Shown: one piece after another, positions 9,876-57,910 of the stretch | How positions within the stretch are numbered: position 1 is the first letter of the stretch | Layout of the letters: the number at the start of each line of letters is the position of its first letter | Origin: Eledone cirrhosa | Taxonomy: Eukaryota | Length of the DNA: 64,000 nt | Direction of reading: 5' to 3' | Assembly (NCBI GenBank): GCA_964016885.1 | Contig: OZ024742.1 | Span: forward strand, 227,106,001-227,170,000 | Notes under the pieces: model-generated | What the model was told of the DNA's origin: nothing | Database searches by the model: none | The model's input: the letters and a program-made list of their open reading frames with translations, nothing else | Translations under genes and position numbers: made by a program

Positions 9876-10027
9876 GGCCACACATCACATATAGTCAGCA
9901 TTATGGTGATCATTACAAACAATGTAGAGTTAACAAACATTTTCTTTTCACAATCTAGGTCAAGACTGTTGTGTTTAACAACATAATATACTTCTTGTTG
10001 TAGACCTGTGTATGTATGTATGTATAA

Positions 10028-30723: not shown

Positions 30724-31014
<291 letters not shown>

Positions 31015-31941: not shown

Positions 31942-31943
<2 letters not shown>

Positions 31944-32008
<65 letters not shown>

Positions 32009-32098
32009 GCCTGCCTGCCTGCCTGCCTGTCTGCCTGCCTGCCTGCCTGTCTGCCTGCCTGTCTGTCTGTCTGTCTGTATGCCTGCCTGCCTGCCTGT
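31944..32098. repeat. Compound (CT)n-(CTGC/CTGT)n microsatellite, 5' flank of the Tx1 element
   Basis: Directly visible. Confidence 0.95.
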
Positions 32099-35000: not shown

Positions 35001-35643
35001 AGATCTGTCCCAGATGCGTGCGCGACGAGGAAACCGTCGCGCACGCATTGGTGCACTGCCCGGGCGTTGCCGATCTGTGGGGCTATGTCGAACGACTGTT
35101 GTCACGGGTGGGACCAATTAGGTTGACCACCGAGTCCATTGTAACGATCAAGCCGCCTCCCCCCTTCAAAAATGAAGGAGAGGCGGTCTTCCTCTGTGTA
35201 ATAGCCATGGTAAAAGAGGCTATATGGTGGACGCGTCTGAAAGGGTTGAGGTCGGACACCTTTCTCTCCGGCCAACAACTGGTCCTTTTCTTCCGATACC
35301 ATTTCGGAAGAAGGATCAGGATGGAGAGAGAGGTGCTCCACTCCAGCCAGTTTTATGAAAGGTGGGTGAAAGTTGCGAGAATGGCCCGTGTGAATGGGCC
35401 TTCTCTCTACCTCAGCCTGTAGGTGGAACAGAAAGAAGGGAGCACCCTCTCTTTGTGCTCCCGTGGAGAAGGGTCGCACACTTTTTTCGGGGGTGTGTGT
35501 GACCCCAAAACGATCCCTCCCTATTGAGGACCTTCTTGTTATTATTTTGTTTGTTATATTTTTCTTACTCGATTTTTATGTAAACTCCCCCCACCCATGT
35601 ACATGTCCCTTTCTTTTGTGCCCTAGTGGCAAATAAACAGAAA

Positions 35644-35646
<3 letters not shown>
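32099..35646 (+). mobile_element. Young 5'-truncated Tx1-type L1 LINE; ORF2 (APE-RT-CCHC) open to the stop at 35422
   Basis: ~1100 uninterrupted codons: VGDWN, LDRF, SDH (APE); SPGLDG, NFRPITLLN, LDQSKAFDRVDH, RQGCPLS, AYADD (RT); CPRC..ETVAHALVHC. AATAAA at 35632 then (GTCT)n. GC-rich against an AT-rich host. Confidence 0.96.

Positions 35647-35725
<79 letters not shown>
35647..35725. repeat. (GTCT)n-(GT)n microsatellite, 3' flank of the Tx1 element
   Basis: Directly visible. Confidence 0.95.
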
Positions 35726-36599
35726 AAGTAAGTTGTAGTTAGAGTATTTTGGTGTGAACATAGTGGTAGTACAGTTTTATATTATTACTGTTTGATTTGT
35801 TAAATCGAAGTCCATTAAACCAAGGTTTTACTATATTACATTAATTTCATTAATATCATTAATGTCATTGGTGATGACATCCAAATGTTCTCTAATACTA
35901 CATACAGCAAACATTGCCATAGTCATCATAACTAGTGAAGGAATCAGCAGATAGTTTAGTATTTATCTCCACCACAGCAGAACCAATTATCTGCTGCTAC
36001 TACTGCTGCTGGTCTTATGTATATTTCTTTCTATATTTAGACAGCAAATCCTTTGTCAACATATTTTCATTGGATTATGATGAAGATTTATTTTTCAAAT
36101 TATTTTTCTAGAAAAAAAATCTCTAAAACACAGTAAAATTGTTTTGACTCGGCAGTTTTTGCTTATAAAAGAATTTGTTTGCTTTAAATCAAAAGAATAA
36201 GTCTCAAGAGAATTACCATTCTGGTTCTGTAAATAGGTATTTATTGACATTCCTGGTTTAGTTTCTGTCAAGTGGTTGGAAGAAATGGTTGCCTGACTAA
36301 ACACATGGTTAACCTTTTTGATACCAAACTGGCTGAAACCATAGATATTTCTGTAATACAAAACTGTTTGTTTTAAAGTATTTATATTTACATTTAAACC
36401 TTCCACCATAATTTTTTATGTAAAAACCTTTGTTCCAAACACCAGCTTCAAAATGACAGTTATATTACTAAATCACTTCAAATTATTATTTTCAAAATAA
36501 TCTTAAATTAGGCAGTGTTTTTCATTAGCAATATAGTAATGAAATGTTTGAAGTGTTTATATTTATATCGAAAACCTTCCATAATTTTATGTAAGACCT

Positions 36600-37430
36600 G
36601 ATCTAAAGGAGGATAGATTGAAGCAGAGAGTCTGAGACAATTTATCTTCAAAAGACTCGACTCTCTCTTTGATCAATTTGCTCAATTCTCAAGATGCTAC
36701 GTACTTTCTTGTGTGCAAAATTCTCAGAGATAGAAGGGTGGGGACTGGGTTGATGTTCTATTCATGACCTACATTGGTGGCTTACTCAGTCTGGATCAGC
36801 TCTGCATCACCATTGAACTCAGAGCTGGAGCCAATGTCTGTGGGGATTGAAATATCATGATAGCAAGTCCCTTGACACAAAAGGTTTTCTTGCTGCCTGA
36901 ATGCAGGTTGCTTCGATCACCATACTGACCTAAACCCTATAAAAGTGTTTTGGCTCGAGTCAATATCTCCTCAATTCTGGAGCCAGCTGGATTGTTCAAG
37001 TCTAATAGGAAGAGACCAGATAGACCTTTACCCCTGGCTAAGCGGTAAATATTTTATTTGAGATGCCACAGTTAGCGACTCTTTTTCTCCTCGCATTCTG
37101 GATGATGTGATGAAGATGAAAGTCACTGAATTTGTAGCCAAATGAAATAGAATTCTAAAATATCAAGAATTATCAGCAAACTATTTTTTGCAGCCTGTGG
37201 CATTTGAGATGTTTGAGGGAGTTGGGAGACAGGGATTGAGGTTTTTGTCATCTTTGGCAGCTGACCATACCAAGGGTGCTTGGTTATTCCAATGGCCTCA
37301 CTATCCCCTGCAGTAATGCTGTGTGTTGGCTTGCTTTAAAATTTATTTGAGAGAGGCTCCAGCACCCTTTGTGGTGTGTGATTTTGTGTATAGGTCTCTC
37401 CTCCACCCTTTTTTCTTTTTACTTTTTTTT
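36600..37430 (+). mobile_element. Degraded CRE-clade retrotransposon 3' portion (restriction-like endonuclease domain)
   Basis: Remnants GDWVDVL...LCITIELRAGANVC, SILEPAGLFKSNRKRPD, PWLSGKYFI*DATVSDS, KYQELSANYFLQPVAFEMFEGVG resemble CRE RLE motifs. Confidence 0.75.
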
Positions 37431-37472
37431 AAAAAGTATTGTATATATCTACAGTTTTATTCATTATATAAA

Positions 37473-37969
37473 CTAGCAGAAAAACCACCCTTCGCATGGT
37501 TTTCTGCTAGCATGTGTAGTGTGTATATTGATATTATACGCAAGTATATATACATGTAGATATGGTACATCAAATAAAATCGAAATTGAGCGAAGACTAG
37601 GTTACACTGGCTTATGTAATCAGTAACGTAATCCATGATACATTAAAAAAAGACGATATTATATATAAACTGCATTAGGAGAAAATTAGTGATGGAAAAT
37701 TAGTATGTTTATTTTAGCGATGGCCAACCGGAAGTGTTGACATTTCAGAAATTTCAAAGAAGTGAATCTTTAAATAAACAAAATATATTTAATGAACAGC
37801 CACGAAATTTAGTAGATAAATTATGTAATATTCATTCATTATTTATTCAAAGTAATCCAACTTATTTTACTAAGGGGATAAAAAATTATAAACCGTACGC
37901 AGTCCCGCGCTCCTTACTTTATTATAGTTTAGATTGTAGTCCTGCGCTTCTTACTTTATTATATTTAGA
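37473..37969 (-). mobile_element. Probable non-autonomous Helitron
   Basis: Minus strand starts A|TCTAAATATAATAAA (duplicated ~37 nt) and ends with an imperfect hairpin then CTAG|T. Confidence 0.5.
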
Positions 37970-38799
37970 TTGTATTGATATTTTTTGTTCTAAAATAAAT
38001 ATCTCATTGTTTAAAATGTATGCAACCTATGTTATGTTTCAAACACTCGCTTAATAATGAAAAAGCTAGTTATCTTACAAATTCCATCCAAATTCTTGAT
38101 TATTTAACTCTTTAGCATTTGCATTATTTACAGTGGATTGGCAGTATTGGTAGAGAGTCGGACGCCATGCTTTCCAGCATAGTTACGTCCGTTTACGATC
38201 TGAGTTCAAATCCCGCCGAGGTTGACTTTGCCTTTCATCCTTACAGGGTCGATAAAATAAAGTACCAGTAATACACTGGGTAATTGCTGGCCTTGTGCCT
38301 AAAGTAGAAACAATTATTTACAGTGGATTGGCAGTATCAGTAGAGGGTCGGACGCCATGCTTTGACGCATAGAGTTACGGTCCTTACCATTCTGAGTTCA
38401 AATCCCGCCATGGTTAACTTTGCCTTTCATCCTTACGGGGTCGATAAAATAAAGTACCCGTAATGCACTGGGTAATTTGCTGGCCTTGTGCCAAAAGTAG
38501 AAACAATTATTCTATATATACTATTGTATTTTCACAGTAAAGGCTTTATCTTACATAATTATCTCACATAATATCAAATTTATGAGATTTTGATATTATT
38601 TATTTAAGAACAATACTTTAACGTTGGTATGAGTGGCCAGTTATAACCGATTTGAACAGAAGATATGAGAGAATTCTGGCCGGATATGGCCGGTTTTAAT
38701 GCTAAAGGGTTAAAAATCATTTGAAAACTATAGGCAATGTCTTTCATTAGAAGTATGATAATGAAAAGGTTATGAGGTGATCCAGTTTTGGTATTTTAC

Positions 38800-39665
<866 letters not shown>

Positions 39666-40585
39666 ATGGTGTTGATGGTAGAATGGTCATAGAAAACTTT
39701 CTAAACAAAAGAAAGGACTCTTCAGTTGTGTCAAAGACATGACAACCTCCCTTGTGCTGAGGACCTTCATCATACACTGAACTTTGTGCAGTGCAGGAAT
39801 GTATGTAAACAAGATGTGACCATGGCTCATCTGAGGGGTCTGTCCAACACTTGTTAGCATGGAAAACAGACATTAATTAACCCTTAAACGTTTCCATTAC
39901 TCTATATTGACTATTGTATTTTCACGATAAACACTTTATCTCACATAATATCAAATCTACAAGATTTTGATATGATTTATTTTGAGAACAATACTTTAAC
40001 ATAAGTATGAGTGGCCGGTTTGAACAGAAAGAAGTGAGAGAATTCTGGTCAGATATGGCCGGTTTAAATGCTAAAGGGTTAAATGATGATGATGATATAT
40101 ATATATATGGGGAGGGGAGAGAGAAATGTGAAGGTATTAGTACTAACTAGCTTTAAAGAGAGATTGATTGAGGACACTTCAGTTCTTAAATGATATATAG
40201 AAGTGTGATTATGTAATTAGCTAGTTGTCAGATTGTTTGAAGAATGTGTTGCCTTCTTTTGGAAATGGTATATAGATGGGTGAAAATATGATTAGCACTA
40301 GCTGTTTTTAAAGCTCGGCTTGGCTGAATGGTTAAGAAGTTCACTTCACTTTCATGTCGTCACAGTTTCAATCCCACTGTATGACATCTTGGGCAAGTGT
40401 ATTTACCATAGTCTCAGGCCAACTGATGCCTTGCGGAAGAGAAGACCATCAGATGGACTGTAACTATAATTAAAAGATCCAGTCTTGTCACATATTGTGT
40501 CACATTAATTTGGCTTGGGAATTATTTTAAGGGTAAACATGTCTATGGAATACTCAGCCACTTACACTATAACTCAAGTTGGATT

Positions 40586-40765
40586 GTACCATGTAATTCA
40601 AAAGTTCAAACTTGTCACATATTCTGTGACATTGATTCTGTCACATTGTACCATGTAATTCAAAGGTTCAAACTTGTTACATATTGTGTAACATTGATTC
40701 TGTCACATTGTACCATGTAATTCAAAGGTCCAAACTTGTCACATATTGTGTCACATTGATTCTGC
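40586..40765. repeat. 62-bp tandem repeat, ~3 copies
   Basis: gtaccatgtaattcaaa starts at 40586, 40648 and 40710. Confidence 0.9.
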
Positions 40766-41382
40766 CTGAGAATTATGTTAAGGGGACACATGACTGTGGA
40801 ATACTCAACTATTTACACATTAATTCACAAGTTGGATTTTCAGTGATTGAATAACTAACATTCATTGTGGAAACCAACAAGGGTTCCATCGTGTACACAC
40901 TCACTCAGTCTCTCTCTCTCTCTAAATTGTATACCTCAATACTATATACCATATATAACAACCTTCCATCCACCCCCATGCCCTCACACCCACCCTCTTC
41001 TGGCCACACTACTGTAAAGTTACACTGTAAAGTTATGTTGGTATCACAAAAAAAAGCATCCGGACATCACTAAGGTGGTTGTGTAGGTGTTATTACAAAA
41101 AGCACCCAGCCCACACTGTAAAGTGGTCATGTAGGAGTCACAACAAAAAGCATCCAGCACACACTGTAAATGTGGTTGGCATTAGGAAGGGCATCCAGCC
41201 GTAGAACCTAGCCAGAAACAGTTTTGTATGAGCAAGATACAGTCACATGACCCAACTTGCCTCTAATGAGACAACCTGTCTAACCCATGCTAGCATGGAA
41301 AAATGGACATTAAACAACGATGATATATATATATAAGTTAAAACAATGAAATAAAAAATCAAGTCATTAGAAATATTATCTC

Positions 41383-41425
<43 letters not shown>

Positions 41426-41453
41426 GCACACACACTTATACATGCATACATAC

Positions 41454-41519
<66 letters not shown>

Positions 41520-41523
41520 TCAT

Positions 41524-41569
<46 letters not shown>

Positions 41570-42337
41570 ATTGTTTCTACTTTAGGCACAAGGCCAGCAA
41601 TTACCCAGTGCATTACTGGTACTTTATTTTATCGACCCCGTAAGGATGAAAGGCAAAGTCAACCTCGGCGGGATTTGAACTCAGATCGTAAACGGACGTA
41701 GCTATGCTGGAAAGCATGGCGTCCGACCCTCTACAGATACTGCCAATCCACCGCCCTATATATATATATAATAATGAGTATAACCGAAGCTGCAGCTGCG
41801 AGAAGTAGATTCACATTCGATTTTCGAAGGCTGTCACAAAGCACTCAATGAAAGAGTAATCAATAAATAACTCCTCAGAGTCAACATATATATATATGTA
41901 TATACACACAATATTATACACACTCCAAACAGTTGTAGCCAAATTACCATCATCAGCACCACCCACTTATACCATACCATCACCACCTCCAATAACAGCT
42001 GCTTCTGTTCTCCAGTAGTTCTCCATATGTTTACTTAATATTTACAACACTGCTGCAAGTCCATCCAACATATGACACTAAAATTAAACAGATCTAAACT
42101 GTTATATGTTTACTTATTTCACTACCTTATTCCATAAGTAATCTATAATATAACATATATCTGGTCTCACTAAGTAGAGAGGTAAGCAAATAGTCTAAAC
42201 CTATTTATTCAATGATATATAATTACTTTAGTGTCAACACACAAGTTCAGATCAATCCACTTGCTAGACATGTATAACTCCAATATATATGAGTAGGTGT
42301 GTGTGTCTGTGTGTGTGTGTGTGTGTATTCGTATAAC

Positions 42338-43797
42338 ATCATCATCATCATCATCATCATTTTACGTCCACTTTTCCCTGCTTGCAAGGGTGGGACGGGT
42401 CTTATTCAGCACAGCATCTCTCCACTCGTCACGGTCCCTCGTCATCTCCACCGTGAGCTTCAATGATCTGAGGTCTGTTCTCACCACCTCCGCCCATGTT
42501 TTTCGTGGTCTACCTCTACCACGTCTTCCTTCAACTGGCATTTCCTGGCACTTCTTCACCCATCGGTCATCCTCCATGCGCATCACATGTCCATACCACC
42601 TCAGTCTCCTCTCCCGTACACTACATTCTATCCCTCTCAGACACAGTTTCTCTCTCAACACATTTATGCTGGGTCGTTCACGCACATTTACACTGCACAT
42701 CCAACGGAGCATGCTTGCCTCATTTCTCTCCAGCCGTCGCATATCTTCTGCGGTAGCTGCCCATGTCTCACTACCATGCAGCATCGCGCTCCTCACACAG
42801 GCATCATACAACCGGCCTTTCGTACGCAGGGAGAAACCCTTCTTCGTCAACAGAGGAAGCAGCTCCCTAAACTTCTTCCAACCCGTCCTTATTCTAGATA
42901 CTATGGCCTCGGAACACCCTCCTCCCATGCTAATCTGATCTCCTAGGTACCGGAAGCTATCCACCACTTCTATAACGCCCTCTCGCATTTGAAAAATGTG
43001 TCTATCAGTGCGACTTCTACTGTCTAATTTCCCTGTACATCTACTGCATACATATTTCTCCCTACCTGTTAGTTTGCCTGCTATCCCGCTACATCTCTTG
43101 TGTACCCAGGACCTACATTGTGTGCATTTTATAGAATTTATGCCAGTTCCTTTTCTGCATATCGAACATGGCCATTTCCCTGACGGAATCAGGGTTTTGT
43201 CCTCTTTTCTACTCATCAACACTTTTGTCTTAGCTAAATTTACTCTCAGTCCTCTTGCTTCCAACTGCTGTTTCCATAGCCGGAATTTATTCTCTAGCTC
43301 CTCTACTGATTCTGCCATAAGAGCCAGATCGTCAGCATAGAGAAGTTCCCATGGACAGCCAGTCTTAAACTCCTCTGTTATGGCTTGGAGGACTATAATG
43401 AACAAGAGCGGGCTGAGGACCGAACCCTGATGTACTCCTACTTGTATCTGGAATTCCTCACTAAACTCCATTCCTACCCTGACTTTACTGAGAGTACCTC
43501 TGTACAAAGTTTGCACTGTCCTTACAAGCCATTCCTCAACACCCAACTTCCTTATGGACCACCAGATGACAGATCGGGGTACCCTATCAAAGGCCTTCTC
43601 TAGGTCAACAAAGGCCAAGTATAGTGGCTTATTCTTCTCTAAGAACCTCTCTTGCATTTGTCTCACCAAGAAGAGGGCATCTGTTGTACTCTTCCCAGGC
43701 ACAAAACCAAACTGCATCTCATCTAGTTTGACCCTTTCTCTAATTAGTTGTGCTAAAATCCTTTCTGCCACTTTCATAACCTGATCTATCAGTTTTA
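42338..43797 (-). mobile_element. Young 5'-truncated RTE LINE with open ORF (RT, PHD-type finger, C-terminus)
   Basis: 479 uninterrupted codons with FVDLEKAFDRVP, GVHQGSVLSP, LLYADD; stop directly before the (ATG)n tail; possible TAACA TSD. Confidence 0.96.
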
Positions 43798-44328
43798 ACA
43801 ATGGTTAAAATTTTCTCTCTCTATGTCCAGTTATTTGCTTTGGTTTCAACAAAGTCTCAGATCATGTCACTTGCCAACCATATACAAATCCTTAATAATG
43901 GTTTCTGATTTAGGCACAAGGCCAGCAATTTGGGGGAGAGGGGAAAGTTGATTAAATCGACTCCAGTGCATGACTGGTATTTTATTTTATCGACCCTGTA
44001 AGGATGAAAGGCGGGATTTGAACTCAGAATGTAAAGGTACATAACTCTATGCAAAGCATAGTGTCCAACACTCTACTGATATTGTCAATCCACCGCCTTT
44101 GCCAATACACCACCCTCAATAATATATCTTCAGTAATTTATGCTGAGTGGTTGAGCAGTTGGTTGATCAGCTGGTTGGCTGGCTTGGTGGTTGGTTAGAT
44201 AGCATGTTGGTTGGAGTGGATGTTTGGTGGAGTGTATGGCAGGTTGGCTATATATGTGGGTGGGTAGGTGGTTGGATAGCTGGGTGGGTAGTTGGTTGGT
44301 TGGCTGGCTGACTGGTCGGTTGGATTGT

Positions 44329-44535
44329 TGGCTGGTTGGTTGGCTGGTCAGTCAGTTGTTTGGTCGATTGGATGGCTGGTCAGTCGGTTGTTTGGTCGAT
44401 TGGATGGCTGGCCAGTCGGTTGTTTGGTCGATTGGATGGCTGGTCAGTCGGTTGTTTGGTCGATTGGATGGCTGGCCAGTCGGTTGTTTGGTCGATTGGA
44501 TGGCTGGTCAGTCGGTTGTTTGGTCGATTGGATGG
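44329..44535. repeat. 32-bp minisatellite, ~6 copies, within a degenerate (TGGY)n tract
   Basis: tggtcgattg recurs at 44361, 44393, 44425, 44457, 44489 and 44521. Confidence 0.92.
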
Positions 44536-45608
44536 CAAGTTGGTCGGTTGGCTGATTGGTTGACTAGGTGGCTGGGTAGCTGGTCAGTTGGTCAGTTAGA
44601 TTGTAGGTTGGCAGTAATTCAACTAGCTGTCCATTAAGCCATAACATATTACAGTCAGCTCATCATGTCCTCTTTATTAACTGTGCAGTATTTCTGTTTT
44701 TTATGTAAACCATGATAAGATACAATGATTCATTCAGTGATAGCAGTGAAATTTGAACCCTTTTACTCTCAAATAATACAAAGGTTTAAAACTGCTAATG
44801 ACATGCTTCATTGGCAACAGTTTTGTCAGTAAGGCTTTAGTGAAGTTTCCATGTTAAATTTCTCAAACATGATTGGAAAAGATCAATTGCTATATTTGAT
44901 TACATGATAGATATCATCATCATCTACATCATCATTTTATGTTTATTTTCCATGGCTTGGATGTATTGTTACAATATGGGACTAAATGGGTTGGGGGATC
45001 ACATCTTGCTCCTATGTTCCAAATTTGGTATGGTTTCTACAGCTGGATGACCTTCCTAACACCAAGCACTTTAACCCTTTAGCATTTAAACCAGCTGTAT
45101 CCGGCCAGAATTCTCTCACCTCACTCTGTTGAAACTGGCTGTAACTGGCCACTTATACTGATGTTAAGGTATTGTTCTTCAAAATAAATATAAAAATCTC
45201 ATAGATTCGATATTATGTGCAATAATTTATAATAGTAAATATAGAGTAATATAAATGCTAAAGGATTAAAGGGTATACTGAGTACATTTTATGATGGCAC
45301 CAGCAGTGCCACTTTACAGCATGTACTGGGAGTATTTTATTATTGCAGCAGCACTACAGAAGATTATCATGAATTCTGCCAGACTAAAGAGTCCTGTCTA
45401 TCCTATATTGTTTCTGTTTGATCACCAATCACTTTACAGACTGCAGTGGGTGCACTTTAGCATGGCACCAACACTAGTGAAGGTTTTCAGGTATTTGACA
45501 GATTCAGAGGGTCCTCTCTATATTGTCTCAGTCATTGTTGGTGGGATATTAATAATTCCCCTCTAAATGAAAATATTCTAATCCACTTGATTTTAAATTT
45601 ATTTTTAG

Positions 45609-45735
45609 ATAACAACTTTGAAACTGACCAAACTTCTAAAACTTTCGAAAGATGGGTGTGATGAGAATTTCAGGAGTTCCCAAGCACAACGTAACCTCTG
45701 TATAATATTAGGCTGTTTGGCAGAGAAAATGGCTG
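45609..45735 (+). CDS. RSPRY1: RSPRY1 internal exon (phase 0 to 1)
   Basis: tttttag acceptor, gtaagt donor; ITTLKLTKLLKLSKDGCDENFRSSQAQRNLCIILGCLAEKMA vs human HRNTSAVLGCLAEKLA. Confidence 0.92.
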
Positions 45736-45814
45736 GTAAGTTGCTTTTACAGTATTGTGAGAGATATATAGGCAGAGGAAATGTTTGGTTATCATTGCAT
45801 TTTCTTAAAGACGT

Positions 45815-46020
45815 GGGTGTCCTGTTAGAAGCAGCATGGATATGGTTGGACAAATGAGGGTATCTTGTTAGAAGTAACAAGGATATGATTGGACAAAGGA
45901 CAGTGTCTTATAAGAAATAACAGGAGTATTGTTGGACAGGGTGTTAGAAACAATAGGGGTACTGTTGGACAGAGGGTGTCTTGTTAGAAGTAATAGGGGT
46001 ATTGTTGGACAGAGGGTGTC
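45815..46020. repeat. Degenerate ~40-bp tandem repeat
   Basis: ttggaca.agggtgtcttgttagaagtaa..ggggtatt recurs about 5 times. Confidence 0.75.
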
Positions 46021-46144
46021 TACAATCAATGCTCCAGAAATGAATGTGTAAGTGGCTGAGCATTCCACAGACGAGTGTGCCCTTAATATAATCCTCAACC
46101 CTGTCGAAAACTATGGAAAGCACAACATTCAGCATGACTTAGAA

Positions 46145-46424
46145 CAGAGGTTTTCAAACTTTTGAGGCCACTGTCCCCCTCGCGGCCACATAATACCCTC
46201 AGCCCCCCCCCCCCCCTCTATTTCCAGACAGACCTGTCTACATGCAAATTGTAAATAATATATAATAAATAAAATCGTTAATTTATATATAATAAACAAT
46301 ATAATATATACTTTCATTTGATATTTAATATACTATTATATCATTTCTACTGCCCCCTGGACCTTCTCAATGACACCCCCCCCCCCCATCCCGGGAGCAG
46401 TAGCACCCACTTTGAGAGCCTCTG
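46145..46424. mobile_element. hAT MITE
   Basis: TIRs CAGAGGTTTTCAAA / TTTGAGAGCCTCTG; 8-bp TSD acttagaa/acctagaa. Confidence 0.85.
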
Positions 46425-46669
46425 ACCTAGAATGTGACTAGGCTGGCTCTTGAATTATTGGTAAAGTCCATGTTATATTATAGTGAAAGTGGTAGTCTCT
46501 TTCTTTCTCTGCTAATCTCTTTCTCTTAACATTACTCCTTTTTGATGAAGGACTAACATCCAATATGGTGAGACATATTTTTCTTTTTTTCCTATAAGCC
46601 TAAAACTAATTTTAAAAAAACTTGTGTAATTGTTCTCTGTATTTGTGTCTTCTTATTTAACCTTGACTA

Positions 46670-47517
46670 CAGGGTGTGGACGATATTTGTTCGCAAGATT
46701 ACTGTCTAGGAAAAAATAACACAGTAGTTTTATTTTTTAAGATATATTTATCAAACTTGGGTCAGTTTGTCTTCATGACTTGTTCTTTCGATCTCACTCG
46801 ATAAACCCGCCATTGGCTTTGATGACAACCTCAAGGCGGCCTTGGAACCGGCTACAAGCCTTCGTCACTGTCCCCCGACTTAGGCCCCTAAAGGCACTTA
46901 TGATCCTGGCCTTGAGATCGTTTTTCGAATTGCAGCTAGATCTGTTGGTGTCTTGTTCCACTGCGAGCTGGGAGGCCAGATGTCAGGTGAAGTGTGGTCG
47001 ACGAAGTTCTCTGACAGCCAGGCTTGGGTCTTTCGGCTGGTATGGCAGGGCGCTGAGTCTTGCTGCCACACGTACGGCCTACCTGCAGCTACCTAGTCGA
47101 TCCAGGGCTTTACTACCTCGCTCAGAACGTGGATGTAGCCATCGGTGTTCAGCTTGAGGCTCTTCAGTGAGGTGGCATGACGTTACCTTGACTGCTGACG
47201 ACACCTAAGACCAATGTTGTTGCTGGAAACTTTGTCTGCATGACTCTGGGCACGTCTTTGGATGAGACACCATTCTCCTGCTGATGCTGAGAAAGTCTGA
47301 AGTTTCCTTATTTGTCCTCCCGGCACGGATTCCAAGAAGAACTCTGTGTCTCTTCCACAAATTTGGAGGTTCAAAATTATTCATAATCAATTATTCTGAA
47401 AATAAATAATGGAAATATAGTCACTGTTTTTATGAAGACAAGAGTGACAATGGAAGTAAAAATAATTTGCATAAAATTAGCAGTTGAAAATTACGAACAA
47501 ATATCGTCCTCACCCTG
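46670..47517 (-). mobile_element. Internally deleted Tc1/mariner-superfamily transposon
   Basis: TA-flanked TIRs CAGGGTGTGGACGATATTTGTTCG / CGAACAAATATCGTCCTCACCCTG; N-terminal remnant KRHRVLLGIRAGRTNKETSDFLSISRRMV and C-terminal KACSRFQGRLEVVIKANGGFIE. Confidence 0.88.
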
Positions 47518-47548
47518 TATATATAAATTTTTGTTCTCATTCATCTAG

Positions 47549-47610
47549 GACCAAGTAGTATTTCATTATTGACCCGAGACGTTTTAGATTATTTAATTTC
47601 AAATATGAGG
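47549..47610 (+). CDS. RSPRY1: RSPRY1 internal exon (phase 1 to 0); not in the ORF track
   Basis: tcatctag acceptor, gtaagt donor; (G)PSSISLLTRDVLDYLISNMR vs human [21 protein letters not shown]. Confidence 0.9.
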
Positions 47611-48879
47611 GTAAGTAACTGTTTTTTTATTTAACAGAAACTCTGTCAAAAATTCCTTTAATCCTTTAGCATTTATACCGGCCATATCCGGTCAGAATTC
47701 TCTCATCTCTTTCTATTCAAACCGGCTGTAACCAGCCACTCGTACTGATGTTAAGGTATTGTTCTCAAAATAAATAATATCAAAATCTCATAGATTCAAT
47801 ACTATGTGAGGTAAAGCCTTTACTGCAAAAATATAATACTAAATATAGAATAATGTAAATGCTAAAGGGTTAAATGTCCAGAACTTTGATAGGCAGAAGT
47901 GTTTTTTTATTTAACAGAAACTCTGTCAAAAGTTCCTTTAAATGTTCAGAATTTGGATAGTCAGATCTGCTGTACTAATCCTTTACTTTTTTACTGATTC
48001 CAGTCTATGGCTCTGTTGGAGCACTGCCTTGGTCATATCAATCCTAGTACTTGTTTTTTCAAGTATATTTATTTCATCAATGTCTGTTTTGTCAAACTGG
48101 GTAGATGCTTGACTTCTTTAATTAAACCAGTGGTTCCCAAATTTATTTTACTCATGGAACACTTATTGGTCATGTCTCAGAATATGACAACTTGTTGATC
48201 TCTTTTTATTGAACCCCAAAGTTACAGGGTTCAAACAAACACTAAACCTAAATGCATACACATGTGCACATATATGCATGTGTGTACGTGTGTCTGGTTT
48301 AAAATAGTTACACTGTATATCTGCATGTTGTAAGAAGCAACTAAGAGGGTTGGTGTCAAGAAGGGCATCAAGCTGTGAAACATTGCCTCAAAAAGTCCTG
48401 TCCAACTTATGCCAGCATAGAAAAACCAACGTAAAAATGATATCATCGTCATCATTTAACATCCATTTTTCCATGCATGGGTCAGATAGGTTGTCTTTGT
48501 GAGAGACAAGTTTGGTCACACTGTACCTTGCTCTGACGGGACTGTAAATTTGGCCTGTGTTTTTATAGCTGGATGCCCTTCCTAACACCAACCACATTTA
48601 CAATATTGAAAAAGATAAGGTCTTTTTTACCTTTCTTCTCTCAGACCATGACAACCTGTCCAACCCATGCCAACATGAAAAGCAAGAGTAAAATGATGAT
48701 AATGATGATGGCAATACAACAGCCATCCACACTGTTTCTATCTATCAAATTCCACTTATAAGATATTGGTCAACCTGAGACTATAGTAAAAGATACTCAA
48801 TATGCTATGCAGTGTGACTGAACCCAAAACCACGTGGTTGTAAAGCAAACTTCTTAACCACACAGCCATGTCTGCACCA

Positions 48880-49392
48880 ATCAGAAAAGCCTTAACATGG
48901 TCAGCCATAAACAAATCTAACAAAACATGGCAATCATCTCCCCTTGAAGAGACTAAAGCGTATGTTCTTCAAAGCCACAGTAGAAAGTGTGTTACTCTAC
49001 AAGTTGGAAGCATGGACACTTAATAAAACCCTCAAAACAAGACTAAATGGATGTTACACGAGACTCCTGAAACACGCTTTCAACATATCTTGGCGACAGA
49101 GAGACACAAATGGAGAACTCTATCTGGATAGTCCTCCCATGTCAGATATTGTTTGTCTAAGAAGGATGTGTTTTGCAGGACATTGTTACAGGGCAAAAAA
49201 CGAGTGTGTCAGCCATGTTCTTTTATGGAAGCCTGCAGAGAGTCATAGAAGTAGAGGTCGTTCTTCAACAACGTATCTGGATATGCTATATGATGACACC
49301 GGATGGAATTTAATAGAAATTAGAGTGATGATACTAGATTGAGACAAATGGGTCGAGGAAACTTGACTCGTTAATGAGTGAATGAGTGAGTT
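48880..49392 (+). mobile_element. RTE-like LINE 3' fragment
   Basis: VESVLLYKLEAWTL...RLNGCYTRLL...ISW...RRMCFAGHCYR; (TGAG)n-like tail. Confidence 0.8.
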
Positions 49393-49478
49393 CAAAGATA
49401 AATTAGTTCAAAATTCAACTTTTCATTAAATATTACTCCTGTGTTCTAATGAAATCAATATTCTTTGTATATTTTCAG

Positions 49479-49542
49479 CACTCTGATTCTCCAGTTGTCA
49501 TACTTCATTCCATTATAGCCATGGAGAAATTTGCAGAAACTA
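49479..49542 (+). CDS. RSPRY1: RSPRY1 internal exon (phase 0 to 1); not in the ORF track
   Basis: attttcag acceptor, gtatgt donor; HSDSPVVILHSIIAMEKFAET(S) vs human [20 protein letters not shown]. Confidence 0.9.
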
Positions 49543-50119
49543 GTATGTCATAACATTTTTTTACTTTTTATTTCTGTTTAGTCAGAAAAGGAAGGGCAGT
49601 GCCCAGCCAACCACCCTTTTCAGGACCTTCTCTTCTTTTTCTTTGCCGACTTATTCCAGGGAGGGTTGTGGTGGCAGAGTCCTCAAGAACACCTTCCAGA
49701 GGGTTCAGTCGGAATCAACCATCTCCAATTGATCCGACTGGATCCCTAAGTGAGAACATCTGAGCTCATGCACAGTGTCTGCCCCTAGGTCTCCTACCAG
49801 TTGGTTTTTCCCCATAAAATCTGTCCAGTGATTCTTTCTTTAGATCCCCTAATCCTAACCACATGTCTGTACTATTGGAGCTGTGATCTCTTAATTTGCA
49901 GAAGTAGTGGTTCTACCTGGAATGACTCTCTGATCTCTGAGCTATGTACTTAATCGAGTAATGTTACTCCAAAGGCTCTTCAGTGGAACCCCATTTCAGC
50001 TGCTTGCATTCGCAATCATATTCTTTCAGTCATTACTCAAGACTTATTCAACTATTTCATAGTTAGCTTTGCAAAAAGGCAAATGTACTTTCAAATTTTA
50101 AACAGTGATAAAAAGTAAT

Positions 50120-50390
50120 ATTATATGGGTTGAATTGGATCTTTTCCAGCACTGCTTTCCTCCACCTACTGCATTCCTTCATCATCTCTTCTGACAGGTT
50201 CATCACTTCTATCCAGATCTTCCTTAGCCATCTACTGCTGCTTCCTTCCACTGGAAATTCTTGGTACTTCTTCACCCAACAATCATCATTCATACACATC
50301 ACATATCCATACCAGTGCAGTCATCTTTTCTGCACACTATATTTGAGTCCTCATAAACCCAGTTTTTCTCTCAGCCTTTCATTCAGTAAA
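50120..50390 (-). mobile_element. Old RTE LINE 3' fragment
   Basis: DDCWVKKYQEFPVEG...WRKAVLEK resembles the C-terminus of the 42362-43801 ORF. Confidence 0.75.
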
Positions 50391-50483
50391 ATATAATTTT
50401 TGAACAATTAAATACCATATTAACAACTTTTACCTTTTTTTAAAATTTATTTAAATTAATAATTTATTTATTCATTTTTACAG

Positions 50484-50624
50484 GTGAAAATAAAATCACA
50501 ATCAACAAAGTGCTCCAGTCAGACCCCAAGAACTTATTAATTTCTCTAGAAAAATGGTACCGCTCTCCTCAGGCGGAGAAACGAGAAGTTGGCTTCTGTG
50601 CACAATGGTTATTAGATAATCTTT
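50484..50624 (+). CDS. RSPRY1: RSPRY1 internal exon (phase 1 to 1)
   Basis: tttttacag acceptor, gtaggt donor; (S)ENKITINKVLQSDPKNLLISLEKWYRSPQAEKREVGFCAQWLLDNL vs human ENKLTI...KRQVGFCAQWSLDNL. Confidence 0.93.
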
Positions 50625-52773
50625 GTAGGTATTTCTTTACCAGAATATATTATTTTATTCTACTTTTTCTGTTAAGTATAGACATAGCTGTACCATGGTT
50701 AAGGAGTTTGTTTTGCAACCACATAACATTGGATTCATTTCCACTCTGTACTTCTGTGCCACCTTGATCAAGTGTCATTTACTAAAGCCAAGGCTTGACC
50801 AATTCCTTGTGAGTGAATTTCGGTAGACAGAAACTGTGTAGAAGCTTGTATGTGTGTGTTTGTGTGTATATATATATACTCAGCCCACACTGTAAGGTGG
50901 TCGTGTAGGTGTTACGACAAAAAGCACCCAGCCCGCACTGTAAGGTAGTCATGTAGGAGTTATGACAAAAAGCACCCTGCACACTCTGTAAATGTGGTTG
51001 ATATTATGAAGGGCATCAAGTCGTAGAAACCTTGCCAGAAACAGTTCTATATGAGTGAGACACGGTCATTTGACCCAACTTGCCTCTAATGGGACAACCT
51101 ATTTAACCCATGATAGTGTGGAAAATGGACGTTAATTGATGATAATGATGATATATATATATCAATACATATACACACACATTGATGTGGTTAAGTAGTT
51201 TGTTTCACATTTACATGTTTTGGGGTTCACTCCCATTTCATGGCACTTTGACCTTGTCTTGTATTATAACTTCAAGTTGACCAATTCCTTGTGAGTGAAA
51301 TTTGGCAGACAGAAACTGTAGATACCTGTGTGTGTGTGTGTGTGTGTGTGTGTTTACATCTAATTCTCATTAATGTCCTGTGACTTAGTAATTCAACATA
51401 AGCTACAGACTTGAAATAATAAGTACTGGGGTCAACATGATCAACTAAATCTCTTCAAGACTGTGCTACAGCATGGCCGCAGTCTAATGAGTGAAACTAA
51501 TAAAAGAATAAAAGAAAAATAACTCTACATTAAGGAATAGTAGAGTCTGTGAATTACCAATGTTCTGGAATAATTCCAGGCTAATAAAGCAGTCTTAAAA
51601 TTAGGCAAGAAGAAGAGCAATGTGAAATTGTCAGAATTAATTTCTATAAAATTACACTTATTTTTATATTGTTGGGAAGCTTCTATATTATCACACAGAC
51701 TCACACTCACTCACTCACACTCACTCACTCACACACACACAAGAAGTACTGCTGTTATGGTAAAATGCATCCAGTACATTCTGTAAAGTATTAGTGCTGG
51801 TGCCATGATAAATTGCACCTGGTACACTCTCTAAAAGAATTGATGTTAGGTAAGTCATAAAGTCATAGAAAACATACCAAAAATTGGAATGTATAAATGA
51901 GACGTAATTCTCCTCTTCCTTCGCCAAGGGCAGCAACTCTGTATAATTGCTAACTCTGACCATAATCTGCCAGCATGGAAAGTAGATAAAATAAGGCATC
52001 TCTCTCTCTATATATATACACACACAGTAAATGTGGTCGGTGTTCTGAAGGGCATCCAGCTGTAAAATTTCCAGTCCCGTCGGAGCAGGGTACGGCGTGG
52101 CAAATTCTGGGCAGACTTGTCTCCTGGTGTGGTCAACCTGTCTAACCCATGGAAAAATGGATGCTAAATGGGGATGATGATGATGTTATATAGATAAAGA
52201 GAAAGCCAACAAGAAAATACAATAATGGTGTAGTAGTTTAATGCTTAATAGAGTTGGGTAAAGAGTCTTAACATTTTGGATGCTAGACCTTCATCAGAAG
52301 GTAGATTATAATAATAATAATAATAATAATAATGAAATTATTGTGTACAGTGCTCAGGTGCACTACAACTCATCAAAGGTGCATGTATAGTACATAGAAT
52401 AATTATATATATCTTTACTCTACAAAGATGATTTAGTTGAATTAATGTTAATTTAAATGACATTATTAAATATTTTTGAAATGTATGTTATTCGTATTTT
52501 CGCATGTAATTAAATTTTCTCTACAAACTGAAATATTGTTTTCTGATATTTGATATATATTTCTATATGAGTTTTTTTTTATTAAAATTGAATATATGTT
52601 TCTTTTTCCCAACACCCTACAAACCTTACAATAACTTAATGCCTTATAAATCGGACATCAACTGGACTTCCTAAAAATCAACCATGCCAATTGGATACCC
52701 TACAAACCTGACATTAAATTAACCTCCTATAAATCTACCACATCAACTGGACATTCAACAAAATGGAATCTAG

Positions 52774-52784
52774 TCATTGTAGAG
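52774..52784 (+). CDS. RSPRY1: RSPRY1 11-nt microexon (phase 1 to 0), encodes (F)IVE
   Basis: ctag|TCATTGTAGAG|gtaaat. Bridges the phase mismatch between flanking exons and restores DNL-FIVE-GRKFTYE, collinear with human DNL-FLKE-GRQLTYE. Confidence 0.8.
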
Positions 52785-52851
52785 GTAAATTTCTGAATTT
52801 TATTTTTTCATATTATATGTATATATTAAGTGTGCATGTTTATCTGTACAT

Positions 52852-52940
52852 TAGGCATGGGCAACCTTTTTCAAGCAATAGACTGCATAGGATGTGATTC
52901 ATCATAAGGCAGGTCGTAGGCTGCAATTTGCCTATGGCTG
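52852..52940. mobile_element. Small hAT MITE
   Basis: Imperfect TIRs taggcatgggcaa / ttgcctatggctg; 8-bp TSD ctgtacat/ctatacat. Confidence 0.7.
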
Positions 52941-54089
52941 CTATACATGTTTTTGTGCAAGTACATATGTATGAAGGCGCATGGCTTAATGGTTAGAGCG
53001 CAGGTCTTACACTTTTTGGACTGTTCTTTGTGTTGTGTTCTTGAGCAAGACATTTTATTTCATATTGTTCCAGTTTACTCAGCTGTAGAAATGAGTTGTG
53101 ACATCACCAGTATCAAGCTGCATCAGCCATTGCCTTTCCCTTGGACCTCATTAGTGGCGTAGAGAGGGGAGACTGGTATGTATGGGCGGCTGCTGGTATT
53201 CCACAAACAACTTTGCCCTAACTTACGCCTCGGAGGGGAATTTCCCATGGTCATTTGAGACCAAAGGGGGTCTTTACCTTTTACTTTATGAGTGTATGTG
53301 TATATATTTATGAAAATAGACGACTTGTATGTAACCCTAGATACTAAATACACATTAAATAATCTTGAGTTCCATGTGTGACCTAACAATAAAATAATAG
53401 GCAGTAAGATGGGTTGGTATGGCAAGCTGTCTAAACTTTGGATAGAGCTGTTGGGTTTCCATTGTAACTTTGGCATTAAACCTGGTGGAGTTCATTCCTC
53501 ACCAAGTCTGAACACGGCCGATTTCTTCCAGAGAAGGCGAGAAATAGTGAGAGAAAGGAAGAGTTGGTGCTTCATTTAACAACCTCAAAAAAATGAATGG
53601 CAAAGTTGACCTCGGTGGGATTTGAACTCGGAACACATGGAGGTGAAATCAATACAGCAAATTACTATCTGTCGTTCTTATGACTCTGCCAATTCGCCAC
53701 CTTCTTAAAATGAAAGTTCAAATAATTGAATTATCTAAATTTCATTCCGTATCTTGGATCGATTGCATGAACAAAATTTTATGTAAATTTAGAGTTGCCT
53801 CCCTTACGGAGCTCTACATGTGTGTTGAAACTAACATTTTAGCGACAGCTGTAATGTTTGGCAAGTGAGACCGTATATTGAAACTAAAGCAATTATATCA
53901 TAGAAGAGTCATTTTAGCTATTTCAAAAGAAAACAACTGTTAAATTCATTTTATATTTATCTCAATTTTTATAAATTCATATCTGTACACACACGATTTA
54001 ACCGAAACTGTGAGAAACTTATATGTAAATATATATGTGAATACATCTTGGTGTTAACATTTTTTTCCGTCATACTGTTTACGACCTAG

Positions 54090-54311
<222 letters not shown>

Positions 54312-54785
54312 TAAGAAGCAGTGTTCATTGCTTGTTATTATTATTGGAATGACAGTATCGGTAGAACGTCACACACCATGCTTTGAAGCATAGTGTTATG
54401 GCCCTTTACGTTCTTAGTTCAAATCCCGCCAAGATTAGCTTTGCCTTTCATCCTTACAGGGTCAATAAAATAAAGTACCAGTAATGCACTGGATAATTGC
54501 TGACCTTGCGCCAAAAGTAGAAACAATTATTATTATCATTTTACATCCACTTTTCATGCTGGTATGGATTGAACATTTAACAGGTTGTCACGATCTGAAA
54601 CAAGACAGGTTGGAATGGCCTCATCTTGCTCATATGTTCCATGTCTCCAGTACACTCTGCAAAGTGGTATTGCTGGTGTCAAGATAAAATGCACCATGTA
54701 CACTGTAAACTGGTAGTGCTTGCGACATGATAAATTGCATTCGGTAGAGCACTGGACTGTATGTAAGCAAGATGCGGACCTCTCT

Positions 54786-54823
<38 letters not shown>

Positions 54824-56142
54824 TTGTTCAATCAACTGAACATCTATCTTGTGAATTAACATGTTAGTGGACACATGTATATCATTGTCATCATGTGTCC
54901 ATTTTTCATGTATGAATGGATCAGAAGGGTTGTCGTATTATGTGTTAGGTCAGATTAGGTGACTGTCTTGCTCATACGAATCTGTATTTTGGCTTGGTTT
55001 CTATGGCTGGATGCCCTTCCTAACACCAACCATGTTGCAGTGTGGACTTGGTGCCTTTTATCATGGCACCAAAACGACCATCTTACAGAGTGCACTGAAT
55101 GGTATTATGTTTTGTGATATTACCAGCACAACCACTTTGCAGGGTGGACTGGGCACTTTTTGTCATGTCACCAGCACAATTACCTTAGAGTGGACTGGGC
55201 ACTTTTTGTCATGTCACCGGCACAACCACCCTACAGGGTGGACTGGGTGCTTTTTTGGTTTTGTCATGTCACCAGCATGACCACATTACAGGATTGATTG
55301 TGCTTTTTGTTGTGTCACTAGAATGACTAATGTACAAGATGGATTGGGCACTTTTTCTTGTGTCACTAACACGATCACCTTACAAAGTGGATTGGAAGCT
55401 ACATTTTTTGCTTGATAAACAGGAAGAAAATTATGATAATAAGGAGAAAGAGGGGGTGGCTTTACACCTCTGTCTAGCCGGTATATGTCAGCTGTGCCCT
55501 GCAGACATGATGGTGAAAGTATTACCATGGAGAACAGCCAACAACATCTGCTGTTTATAATGAAGCCAAACAGATCTGTCATCCACAAACTTGTCTATTT
55601 AAACCTGGTTTCTGTTGATGGTAATTCTGCATTTTTGGAATGTAAATTTTTTTCAGAAGAGATAACATTTAATTTAATAATATTTATAAACACAGTGTGT
55701 GTTAATTTCATCCTCAGCCAATATTTCAATTGAACCAGAGAAACAATTTCATATTTCACCCACCACACACTACTTCTAATATAGTCTTCATACTGGTGCC
55801 GTTTTGAAGTATGTCAATAAAATTAATGCTTTATCTCCTACGATTTATCTGTCCATGTATTGTTTGTCATAACACTATATTTGAAGCTATTTCTTCAAAA
55901 TGTTAAAGAATCTAAGATAATTTAAAGTAGTTAACTAGTTTTTGTTTTTTGTTGTTGTTTTTTTTTGTGTTTGTTCTAATGAAAGAATTTGGAGGAGTTT
56001 AGTAATATAACTTTCTCAGTATTAAGTTTGGCTTGGAATATAACTTAAACATTCCTATTCAAAATTATGATAAAAAGTTTTAAAATAAATATAAACACAT
56101 TAGAATAAACTGATTTGTATGATAGAACCAAGGACAATTTAA

Positions 56143-56424
<282 letters not shown>

Positions 56425-57772
56425 TAAGCCTCAATTGGTTATCTCCCCTCTTTTGGATAAGCTGCAGGGGTGGGTAGTAGTTAATGTAATATTTTAGTTA
56501 TCCTTTAACCCTTACATTACTCTATATATACTATTATATTTTCATGGTAAAGGCTGAATCTCTCATAATTGTCTCACATAATATCGAATCTATGAAATTT
56601 TGATATTATTTATTTTGAGAACAATACCTTAACATATGTATGAGTGGCCAGTTATGGTCAATTTGAACAGAAAGAGGTGAGAGAATTCTGGCCTATTTAA
56701 ATGCTTAAGGTTTTAATTAGATATGATTACAGACAATCCTACCATGACCACCTAGTTTTGGTTTTCCTTATTTTGGGGTGTGTCAGAAAGACCTCATCTT
56801 GCTCATATGGTCCATATTTAACATGATTTCTATTGCTGGATGCTATTCCTAACACCAACCACTTTACAAAACACACCCAGTACACTCTGTAAAGTGGTTG
56901 GCTTTTGGAATGACATACAACTGTAGAAACTATGCTTAATATGGTATGTATGAGCTAGATGAGGTCCCCTACTTTCCTCCCTGCCCTCAACATGTCTAGT
57001 CTTGCACCATGACAACACATCCAAGCCATACCACCATGGAAAAGGTATGAAATAATGATGGTTGTGATTTTTTTTTTTACATGAATAGTATACTTGGAGT
57101 ATATCAGTTGTTGTGTCCTTGTTTAAGACTTTATCGTTAGGGTATACATGATAAAGAAGAATAACTACAATTTCTCATATTGTCATCATCATCGTCGTCG
57201 TCATCATTTTATGCCTGTGTCCATGTTGGGAGGGGTTGGCTGGGTTGTCACATTGTTGTACTAGACAGGTCTGTGACCACAACTAACTCATATGTTCCAT
57301 TTTGGGCATGGATTTTATGGCTTGATGCCCTTCTTAATGCTAACCACTTTACAGAGTGTATTGGGGGGCATTTTATGGTGGCACCAGTACTATCTCTTTA
57401 CAGGATTTACTGGGGGCATTTTATTGTGGCATCAACACTACCACTTTACCTAATAACATTGATTTTATACAACAAAATCTTATCAAAATAAACTGGATTA
57501 GATATTAAAACTTAACATTATCAGTAGAGGGTCGGACGCCATGCTTTGACGCATAGAGTTACGGCCCTTGCCATTCTGAGTTCAAATCTCGCCGAGTTTA
57601 ACTTTGCCTTTCATCCTTACGGGGACGATAAAATAAAGTACCTGTAATGCACTGGGGTTGATTTAATCGACTTTCCACTCTCCTTCAAATTGCTGGCCTT
57701 GTGCATAAAGTAGAAACAATTATTTAAGCAAACTAACTGAAAGAGGTTTTATAAATATTTTATTAAATGTAG

Positions 57773-57910
<138 letters not shown>

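What the first reader, a model, noticed from the sequence alone, without database searches (positions are those of the whole stretch)
52572..52790. Frame-essential 11-nt microexon behind a 200-nt AG-free zone
Seen: the exon ending at 50624 is phase 1 and all nearby acceptors of the 54123 exon are phase 0. TCATTGTAGAG fixes the frame and supplies four residues matching the recalled human length. No AG occurs from 52572 to 52771, the pyrimidine tract is far away (~52599-52610) and the AG context is purine-rich. Skipping gives a stop at 54140-54142. Inference: distal branch point, and a possible NMD on/off switch that automated annotation would likely miss. The zone is G-poor, which weakens the AG-exclusion argument.
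Basis: partly seen in the sequence, partly recalled or inferred. Interest (0 to 1): 0.7.

Follow-up and report, generated by a model that had tools for sequence, protein, structure and literature searches.

The report
Essential 11-base exon in mollusc RSPRY1
An 11-base exon is spliced into the message of this octopus-type animal's RSPRY1 gene and is needed to keep the protein in frame; it likely arose when a new intron cut a longer ancestral exon early in mollusc evolution, and it is likely a routinely included piece rather than an on/off switch.

Summary
The microexon (52774-52784) is real. A spliced contig has exactly 11 nt, ending in AG, between the flanking RSPRY1 exons. It supplies F-I-V-E, as in Octopus sinensis, Argonauta and other cephalopod proteins. 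Skipping frameshifts.

New here is its likely origin. Nine of nine intron-bearing metagenome loci, including a bird-like one, keep these 11 nt fused to the next exon (five as one 116-nt exon). Oyster-, snail- and cephalopod-like read-through ORFs and the Sepia and Mya models show the extra acceptor. So an intron was probably gained in early molluscs.

The 200-nt AG-free zone is real and twice the gene's next longest, but most of it is a diverged duplication, and its best branch-point motif is lost in a relative. A distal branch point and an NMD switch remain untested; most features of neural eMIC microexons are absent. O. vulgaris and Sepia models miss the exon; RefSeq has it.

The scan had no earlier RSPRY1 note; it noted a similar 6-nt ADAM17 exon in this genome. 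Verdict: a new member of a known kind.

The parts
52774..52784 (+). 11-nt coding microexon of RSPRY1 (phase 1 in, phase 0 out); completes F and encodes I-V-E
   Evidence: Spliced contig has 11 nt ending in AG between 50624 and 54123 (record 25). It is the only open-frame 11-nt AG..GT candidate in the interval that ends in AG. Homologous proteins read FIVE-GRK.
50484..50624 (+). Upstream RSPRY1 exon (141 nt), donor TTT|GTAGGT, the weakest of 9 donors by match to CAG|GTAAGT (5 of 9)
50625..52773 (+). 2,149-nt intron at the ancestral position (DNL|F, phase 1), shared with other animals
   Evidence: All 9 intron-bearing metagenome loci have an acceptor at this position. A manatee isoform has two extra residues here (P0102).
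52572..52771 (+). 200-nt AG-free, nearly GT-free, A/C-rich, unstructured zone before the acceptor
   Evidence: folding z +1.48 for 52560-52810; no Rfam match
52599..52610 (+). Longest pyrimidine run, 164-175 nt before the exon (second T run at 52572-52580)
52614..52764 (+). Diverged tandem duplication (52614-52678 and 52697-52764) that makes up most of the zone
   Evidence: both copies' core words appear present but rearranged in a related species (my reading of its difference tables)
52543..52547 (+). Distal branch-point candidate CTGAT (-231); a GAG lies 24 nt downstream of its A and would have to be bypassed
   Evidence: motif scan only; inferred
52708..52723 (+). Proximal branch-point candidates CTGAC (-66) and TTAAC (-55)
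   Evidence: motif scan; both overlap gaps in the related species
52785..54122 (+). 1,338-nt phase-0 intron, inferred to be a molluscan gain at an AG|G site; donor GAG|GTAAAT (7 of 9), acceptor with CTGAC at -30
54123..54227 (+). Downstream RSPRY1 exon (105 nt); 11 + 105 = the 116-nt exon of other animals
54140..54142 (+). TGA reached if the microexon is skipped; 85 nt before the next junction
30744..57884 (+). Span of RSPRY1 coding exons in the window (also 30744-30909, 45609-45735, 47549-47610, 49479-49542, 56224-56367, 57773-57884). The first coding exon lies about 18.5 kb before the window and four more lie 38-57 kb after it.
   Evidence: tblastn with the O. sinensis protein on the window plus neighbouring stretches

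Best explanation
The 11 bases at 52774-52784 are a coding microexon of RSPRY1 that is spliced into the message and keeps it in frame; it likely arose when a new intron was inserted 11 nt into an ancestral 116-nt exon in early molluscs, and it is likely included by default rather than switched. Shown: inclusion, frame need, and the unsplit exon in other animals. Inferred mechanism: the exon is too short to be recognised on its own, so one flanking intron is removed first. The likelier one is the younger downstream intron, which has a good donor and an ordinary acceptor; removing it rebuilds the ancestral 116-nt exon. The upstream acceptor has no nearby T tract, so it would be found by scanning from a branch point somewhere 55-230 nt upstream to the first AG. 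The AG-free zone would make that first AG the right one and keep the two AGs inside the exon (52781, 52783), both destructive if used, from being chosen. The zone's unusual length is in large part owed to a local duplication that pushed the T-rich tract away from the AG.
For:: contig 25 of run X5 (1,808 nt) matches 50484-50624 at record 819-959 and 54121-54228 at record 969-1076 with no mismatches, which leaves 11 nt ending in AG; only this candidate fits. FIVE-GRK in O. sinensis, Argonauta and 7 of 7 Logan-derived cephalopod-type proteins (one on 149 contigs). F is kept in 118 of 120 homologues; of 14 metagenome loci, 5 are contiguous, 9 have an acceptor 11 nt before the GR codons, 5 of these read ag|116 nt|gt, and none has an acceptor directly before GR. 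L015 is bird-like (177/204 identical to Eudromia); among 109 short homologues, 30 read through into the unsplit type (including named Ceratitis, Timema, Glandiceps) and 11 into the split type (..Q|GR, Q|NR or Q|DR). Split-type nearest named matches: oysters 31/35 and 30/35, Pomacea 31/35 and 29/35, Argonauta 30/35. The Sepia and Mya gene models jump to the same phase-0 point.
Against: The 9 inner letters of the insert were not displayed. X5 is not on record as RNA and gave one contig. No inclusion level or tissue data exist here, so 'by default' is inferred from the frame need. The split type outside this genome rests on protein read-throughs and faulty gene models, not on DNA showing the microexon. 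Six of the 11 split-type ORFs have weak or unresolved affinity (26-29 of 35), and P0195 looks non-molluscan and lacks the next intron, so the gain could be older, or repeated. No securely identified annelid, brachiopod or nemertean locus was seen. The weak acceptor and long AG-free zone are features of regulated exons (PMC8797185 section 10; PMC1431707 passages), and constitutive human microexons tend to have strong splice sites (as cited in PMC8831610, passage read). Order of intron removal and branch point are untested.
Confidence: 0.72

Rival explanations
1. The microexon is a regulated on/off switch: it is skipped in some tissues or states, and the skipped message is destroyed by NMD, possibly under eMIC/SRRM-type control.
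For: Weak acceptor and the gene's longest AG-free zone. The skip product has a stop 85 nt before a junction. Fly eMIC exons have weak 3' sites and long AG exclusion zones (PMC8797185 section 10). Human exons with zones of 150 nt or more were cassette exons in 32.5% of cases against 19.8% overall (PMC1431707, figure legend passage). The O. vulgaris model ends in a skip-type frameshift.
Against: Nearest UGC is at -89; no UCUC and no CUAAY in the zone; the upstream donor is weak, not strong. The O. vulgaris model uses a donor 4 nt downstream and is a prediction, not a shown isoform. The zone is being remodelled between related species.
Confidence: 0.13
2. The exon is real, but the AG-free zone has no function beyond an ordinary 60-90 nt exclusion zone; its length is a by-product of a G-poor duplication.
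For: The duplication covers about 150 of the 200 nt. Other acceptors of this gene already have zones up to 95 nt, and two other complex AG-free gaps of 200 nt or more occur in 528 kb of strand. Canonical-looking branch points lie at -66 and -55. PMC1431707 estimates that only a half to a fifth of human zones of 100 nt or more mark a distant branch point (passage read).
Against: The proximal candidates fall in gaps in the related species, and none of its 10 listed substitutions and 12 listed gaps creates an AG (6 substitutions, 2 gaps and 74 letters were not shown). No T tract lies near the AG. This rival is compatible with the best explanation and differs only on the zone.
Confidence: 0.45
3. 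The second intron is ancestral, and most animal lineages lost it; or it was gained more than once at the same AG|G site.
For: P0195 shows the split type but resembles non-molluscan sequences. In plants, loss of flanking introns merges microexons into long exons (PMC8831610, passage read).
Against: The unsplit type is seen in vertebrate-like, insect, hemichordate and chelicerate-like sequences, which would need several losses.
Confidence: 0.15
4. Intronic motifs complementary to the microexon and to the upstream donor form an RNA bridge that controls inclusion.
For: All 4 plus-strand CTACAAA words of the window lie in 52420-52706, and 52409-52435 is the best partner of the upstream donor (-18.7 kcal/mol, better than the best of 99 other 500-nt chunks).
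Against: 6 of 150 resampled introns do as well, and this was 1 of 9 donors tested. Two of the four words come from the duplication. Both words that could be checked in the relative are altered. Pairing to the microexon itself is unremarkable.
Confidence: 0.07

Closest known systems
RSPRY1 (RING finger and SPRY domain-containing protein 1), O. sinensis XP_029640866.1
   Same: Same gene; exons in the window are 83-98% identical over the tblastn matches. The RefSeq protein already contains FIVE.
   Different: No paper on its microexon was found. Vertebrate-like and arthropod loci carry these residues in one longer exon.
Conserved, often misannotated coding microexons of 15 nt or less (plant set of PMC8831610; passages read)
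   Same: Tiny, coding, needed for a correct protein, not a multiple of three (about half of the plant set), missed by some annotations, present as part of a longer exon in other lineages.
   Different: Animal gene. The paper's passages explain fused forms by intron loss, whereas here the fused form looks ancestral.
Distant-branch-point exons with long AG exclusion zones (PTB exon 11, GABBR1 exon 23; PMC1431707, passages read)
   Same: [quoted passage not shown]
   Different: No strong branch motif inside the 5' end of the zone; the best distal candidate lies upstream of a GAG; pyrimidine runs are short (9 and 12 nt); zone not conserved in sequence in a relative.
eMIC/SRRM4-dependent neural microexons (PMC8797185, section 10 read)
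   Same: Short exon, weak 3' splice site, long AG exclusion zone.
   Different: No UGC near the acceptor, no UCUC tract, no CUAAY, weak upstream donor, kilobase introns, frame-essential.

Membership tests
Coding microexon (15 nt or less) | Internal exon of 15 nt or less with canonical AG and GT ends | tested here: met
   11 nt, TAG|...|GTAAAT
Coding microexon (15 nt or less) | Present in spliced product | tested here: met
   11-nt insert ending in AG in one spliced contig; FIVE in related proteins; inner 9 letters not displayed
Constitutive frame-essential microexon | Skipping breaks the frame | tested here: met
Constitutive frame-essential microexon | Inclusion near 100% across tissues | not testable with these tools
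   Only contigs and RAD-seq reads were offered
RSPRY1 orthologue | Sequence match to named RSPRY1 proteins with SPRY (PF00622) and RING (PF13920) domains, exons in order | tested here: met
Distant-branch-point exon | AG exclusion zone of 100-150 nt or more | tested here: met
   200 nt
Distant-branch-point exon | Consensus branch point with adjacent pyrimidine tract near the 5' end of the zone | tested here: inconclusive
   TTCTGAT at -233 precedes a GAG and then T9; no YNYTRAY inside the zone
Distant-branch-point exon | Branch point mapped by lariat or mutation | not testable with these tools
   needs lariat reads or a minigene
eMIC/SRRM4 neural microexon | Weak 3' splice site and long AG exclusion zone | tested here: met
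eMIC/SRRM4 neural microexon | [quoted passage not shown] | tested here: not met
   nearest TGC at -89 and -134
eMIC/SRRM4 neural microexon | Long UCUC-rich pyrimidine tract and CUAAY branch point | tested here: not met
   no TCTC/CTCT in the zone and no CTAAY in 52437-52773
eMIC/SRRM4 neural microexon | Neural-specific, eMIC-dependent inclusion | not testable with these tools
   no tissue RNA reads
AS-NMD switch exon | Skipped form has a stop more than 50 nt before the next junction (rule recalled) | tested here: met
   85 nt
AS-NMD switch exon | Skipped form exists, is regulated and is NMD-sensitive | not testable with these tools
   contigs cannot show rare forms

The most novel reading that the evidence does not exclude
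Probability: 0.12. Interest if true: 0.62.

Novelty: new member of a known kind. Interest (0 to 1): 0.3.

Why it matters
It corrects gene models: O. vulgaris RSPRY1 is split into two genes and the Sepia and Mya GenBank models delete 15-16 residues at this spot. It gives a datable case of a microexon made by intron gain inside a conserved exon and then kept across three mollusc classes, even though every splicing error there kills the frame. The intron could serve as a rare-genomic-change marker for mollusc relationships. The acceptor without a nearby T tract is a compact test case for how cephalopod spliceosomes find a weak AG. If skipping were regulated, it would be a lineage-specific off switch on a gene whose loss causes a skeletal dysplasia in people (recalled, from no call).

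Tried and rejected
No RNA holder was listed for the region. X5 depth over the two flanking exons equals that of the one inclusion contig, but contigs drop rare variants, so this says nothing on skipping. X5 and the RAD-seq run X6 gave no useful cover of the zone.

Other frame fixes were rejected: the +4 donor joined directly, the acceptors at 54090 and 54102, and a 213-nt exon from the GAG at 52570 do not restore the frame (the last by arithmetic). Using the +4 donor together with the microexon is also out of frame. Of 137 open-frame AG..GT candidates of suitable phase up to 60 nt, only those up to 20 nt were printed; among the 11-nt ones only 52774 ends in AG.

The zone is not a repeat family in this genome (1 match), has no Rfam match (one weak hit elsewhere, E 0.53) and folds worse than shuffles. 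The RNA-bridge idea failed its controls. An older four-unit repeat reaching back to 52410 was not supported: 1 of 4 pairings reached 11/500 and the rest 93-146/500. An editing-partner reading of the CTACAA words was dropped for the same reasons and was not tested with reads.

The genome search holds no relatives for this genome, so the microexon's DNA was not seen in other molluscs. In one search, 60 of 109 short homologues were not classified (contiguous, too short or unmatched by the script) and 8 were ambiguous.

Literature: 'RSPRY1' + 'microexon' gave 0 papers; 'microexon' + 'octopus' gave 4 (3 listed); 'RSPRY1' + exon + intron gave 16, with none of the 12 listed on gene structure by title or abstract start; searches added background only. 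Most subscription journals are not searched. Supplements of the bioRxiv study 10.64898/2026.09.05.749416, which includes O. bimaculoides, are closed and may list this exon.

Full report
What the window is. The region is part of a large RSPRY1 gene of an octopod cephalopod. The exon before the finding is 98% identical to an O. bimaculoides RSPRY1-like protein. tblastn with the O. sinensis protein finds 8 exons in the window in order, a first coding exon about 18.5 kb before it and four more 38-57 kb after it. The microexon is too short to be found that way.

The exon 50484-50624 ends in phase 1 and the exon 54123-54227 starts in phase 0. Joining them directly, or through the donor 4 nt downstream, gives a stop; adding 52774-52784 gives an open frame reading DNL-FIVE-GRKF. 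There is no AG from 52572 to 52771. The acceptor has 25% T in its last 20 nt, against 50-70% at the other 8 acceptors; their AG-free zones are 19-95 nt (the first exon's start was set one base late there). Base shuffles give an AG-free zone in 0.09% of trials. In 264 kb of this genome read on both strands, 28 of about 31,400 gaps reach 200 nt, and 3 of these are complex sequence, this one included. So the zone is rare, although the test is after the fact.

The exon is spliced in. Eight runs were listed, none on record as RNA. One of them, X5, holds a 1,808-nt contig that matches the upstream exon at record positions 819-959 and the downstream exon from record position 969, where the first two matched letters are the AG just before 54123. 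That leaves 11 nt ending in AG between the exons. Among the 11-nt open-frame candidates in the interval only 52774-52784 ends in AG. The other nine letters were not displayed, and this is one contig from the same study as the best DNA holders. Independent support comes from proteins. O. sinensis RefSeq, Argonauta and all 7 Logan-derived proteins of two cephalopod-type clusters read FIVE-GRK. The DNL-to-LN spacing is 21 residues in 123 of 125 measurable proteins, of 132 examined. F is kept in 118 of 120 homologues.

Annotation. Of six informative cephalopod gene models, four contain FIVE: O. sinensis, Argonauta and two O. bimaculoides models that go wrong just after it. O. vulgaris is split into two proteins at this point, the first ending in the frameshifted +4-donor product. 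Sepia pharaonis jumps from KQE to GRK. A seventh model ends earlier and says nothing.

Origin. 11 + 105 = 116 nt. A scan of metagenome contigs for the downstream motif gave 14 loci. Five are contiguous coding sequence. Nine have an intron, and in all nine the acceptor lies 11 nt before the GR-equivalent codons; five read ag|116 nt|gt. One is bird-like (177/204 to Eudromia), four are nearest to a chelicerate at low identity, and the rest are unresolved. This fits my recalled human exon of c.902-1017; one search shows only that those numbers fall at the same codons. Short homologues predicted straight from genomic DNA read through into introns and so reveal the acceptor. Of 109, 30 show the unsplit type, 11 the split type, 8 are ambiguous and 60 were not classified. 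Split-type ORFs include two oyster-like (31/35 and 30/35), two gastropod-like (31/35 and 29/35 to Pomacea) and one cephalopod-like (30/35); six are weakly placed, and P0195 looks non-molluscan. With the Sepia and Mya models, three mollusc classes show the extra acceptor. The simplest reading is one intron gain at an AG|G site (proto-splice site concept recalled; seen only in search listings) in or near the mollusc ancestor. An older or repeated gain is not excluded.

The zone. About 150 of its 200 nt are two diverged copies of a 65-70 nt unit. It is single-copy in the genome, unstructured and matches no Rfam family. In a related species (run X4) one 450-nt contig covers 52462-52568 and 52655-52807, with 74 letters in place of 86 between them and 27 gap positions in the second piece. 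The listed differences remove the CTGAC and TTAAC branch candidates and create no AG; 6 substitutions, 2 gaps and the 74 letters were not shown. The microexon bins are covered at full depth, but identity there is not shown. So the zone's sequence is labile; whether its lack of AG is under selection over the whole length is open. PMC1431707 (passages read) puts the share of long human zones that mark a distant branch point at a fifth to a half.

A side lead that failed. Four CTACAAA words upstream are complementary to both the microexon and the similar upstream donor, and 52409-52435 pairs with that donor at -18.7 kcal/mol. But 6 of 150 resampled introns do as well, it was one of nine donors tested, and both words checkable in the relative are altered.

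How it likely works. Shown: inclusion and frame need. Inferred: stepwise splicing, probably the downstream intron first (donor 7 of 9 to consensus, CTGAC at -30), which rebuilds the ancestral exon, followed by scanning to the first AG. The exon's two inner AGs would give a TAG stop or a zero-length exon, so first-AG choice matters. I put default inclusion with a molluscan origin at about 0.72 and a regulated NMD switch at about 0.13.

Comparison with what is known. It belongs with small conserved coding microexons that annotation often misses (PMC8831610, passages read). It shares the weak acceptor and long zone of fly eMIC exons but lacks their UGC, UCUC tract, CUAAY motif and strong upstream donor (PMC8797185, section 10 and passages read). 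In mammalian SRRM3/4 targets the AG exclusion zone correlated only weakly with inclusion (10.1101/2024.09.17.613571, passages read). The cross-species study 10.64898/2026.09.05.749416 includes an octopus but does not name RSPRY1 in its main text (passages read; supplements closed). Searches for RSPRY1 with microexon found no paper. The scan had no note on RSPRY1; an unchecked note on a 6-nt ADAM17 exon in this genome describes a similar case.

Verdict. A real, frame-essential microexon, already implicit in RefSeq, with a probable origin by intron gain that I did not find described. New member of a known kind; interest 0.3.

Noticed in passing
window 1-9900: A 10-kb tandem array of short units with very long open frames in more than one reading frame (Thr/Pro/His-rich); it lies inside the first RSPRY1 intron and is probably a satellite.
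   Followed up: no
window 50613-50631 and 52774-52788: The upstream donor region and the microexon with its donor share the word TTGTAG followed by GTA within 1-2 nt; this may mislead aligners, and may be chance.
   Followed up: partly
window 30710, 56206: CTACAA also stands 18-34 nt before two other RSPRY1 acceptors; 18 copies in the window in all.
   Followed up: no
window 47549-47610: The 62-nt exon PSSISLL... is missing from all three O. bimaculoides models, which read into the intron instead.
   Followed up: no
proteins P0172, P0222-P0224: An unnamed lineage seems to have a different extra intron about 8 codons further into the same ancestral exon.
   Followed up: no
protein P0195: Split-type acceptor before GRK in a sequence that looks non-molluscan and lacks the next intron; a possible independent gain at the same site.
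   Followed up: partly
L016-L023, about 18-34 kb past the window end: About 15 kb of AG-free simple-repeat sequence (ACC/ACT-type) within an RSPRY1 intron, with one gap of 8,376 nt.
   Followed up: no
window 31930-35500: A GC-rich stretch with long open frames inside an intron, probably a transposable element.
   Followed up: no
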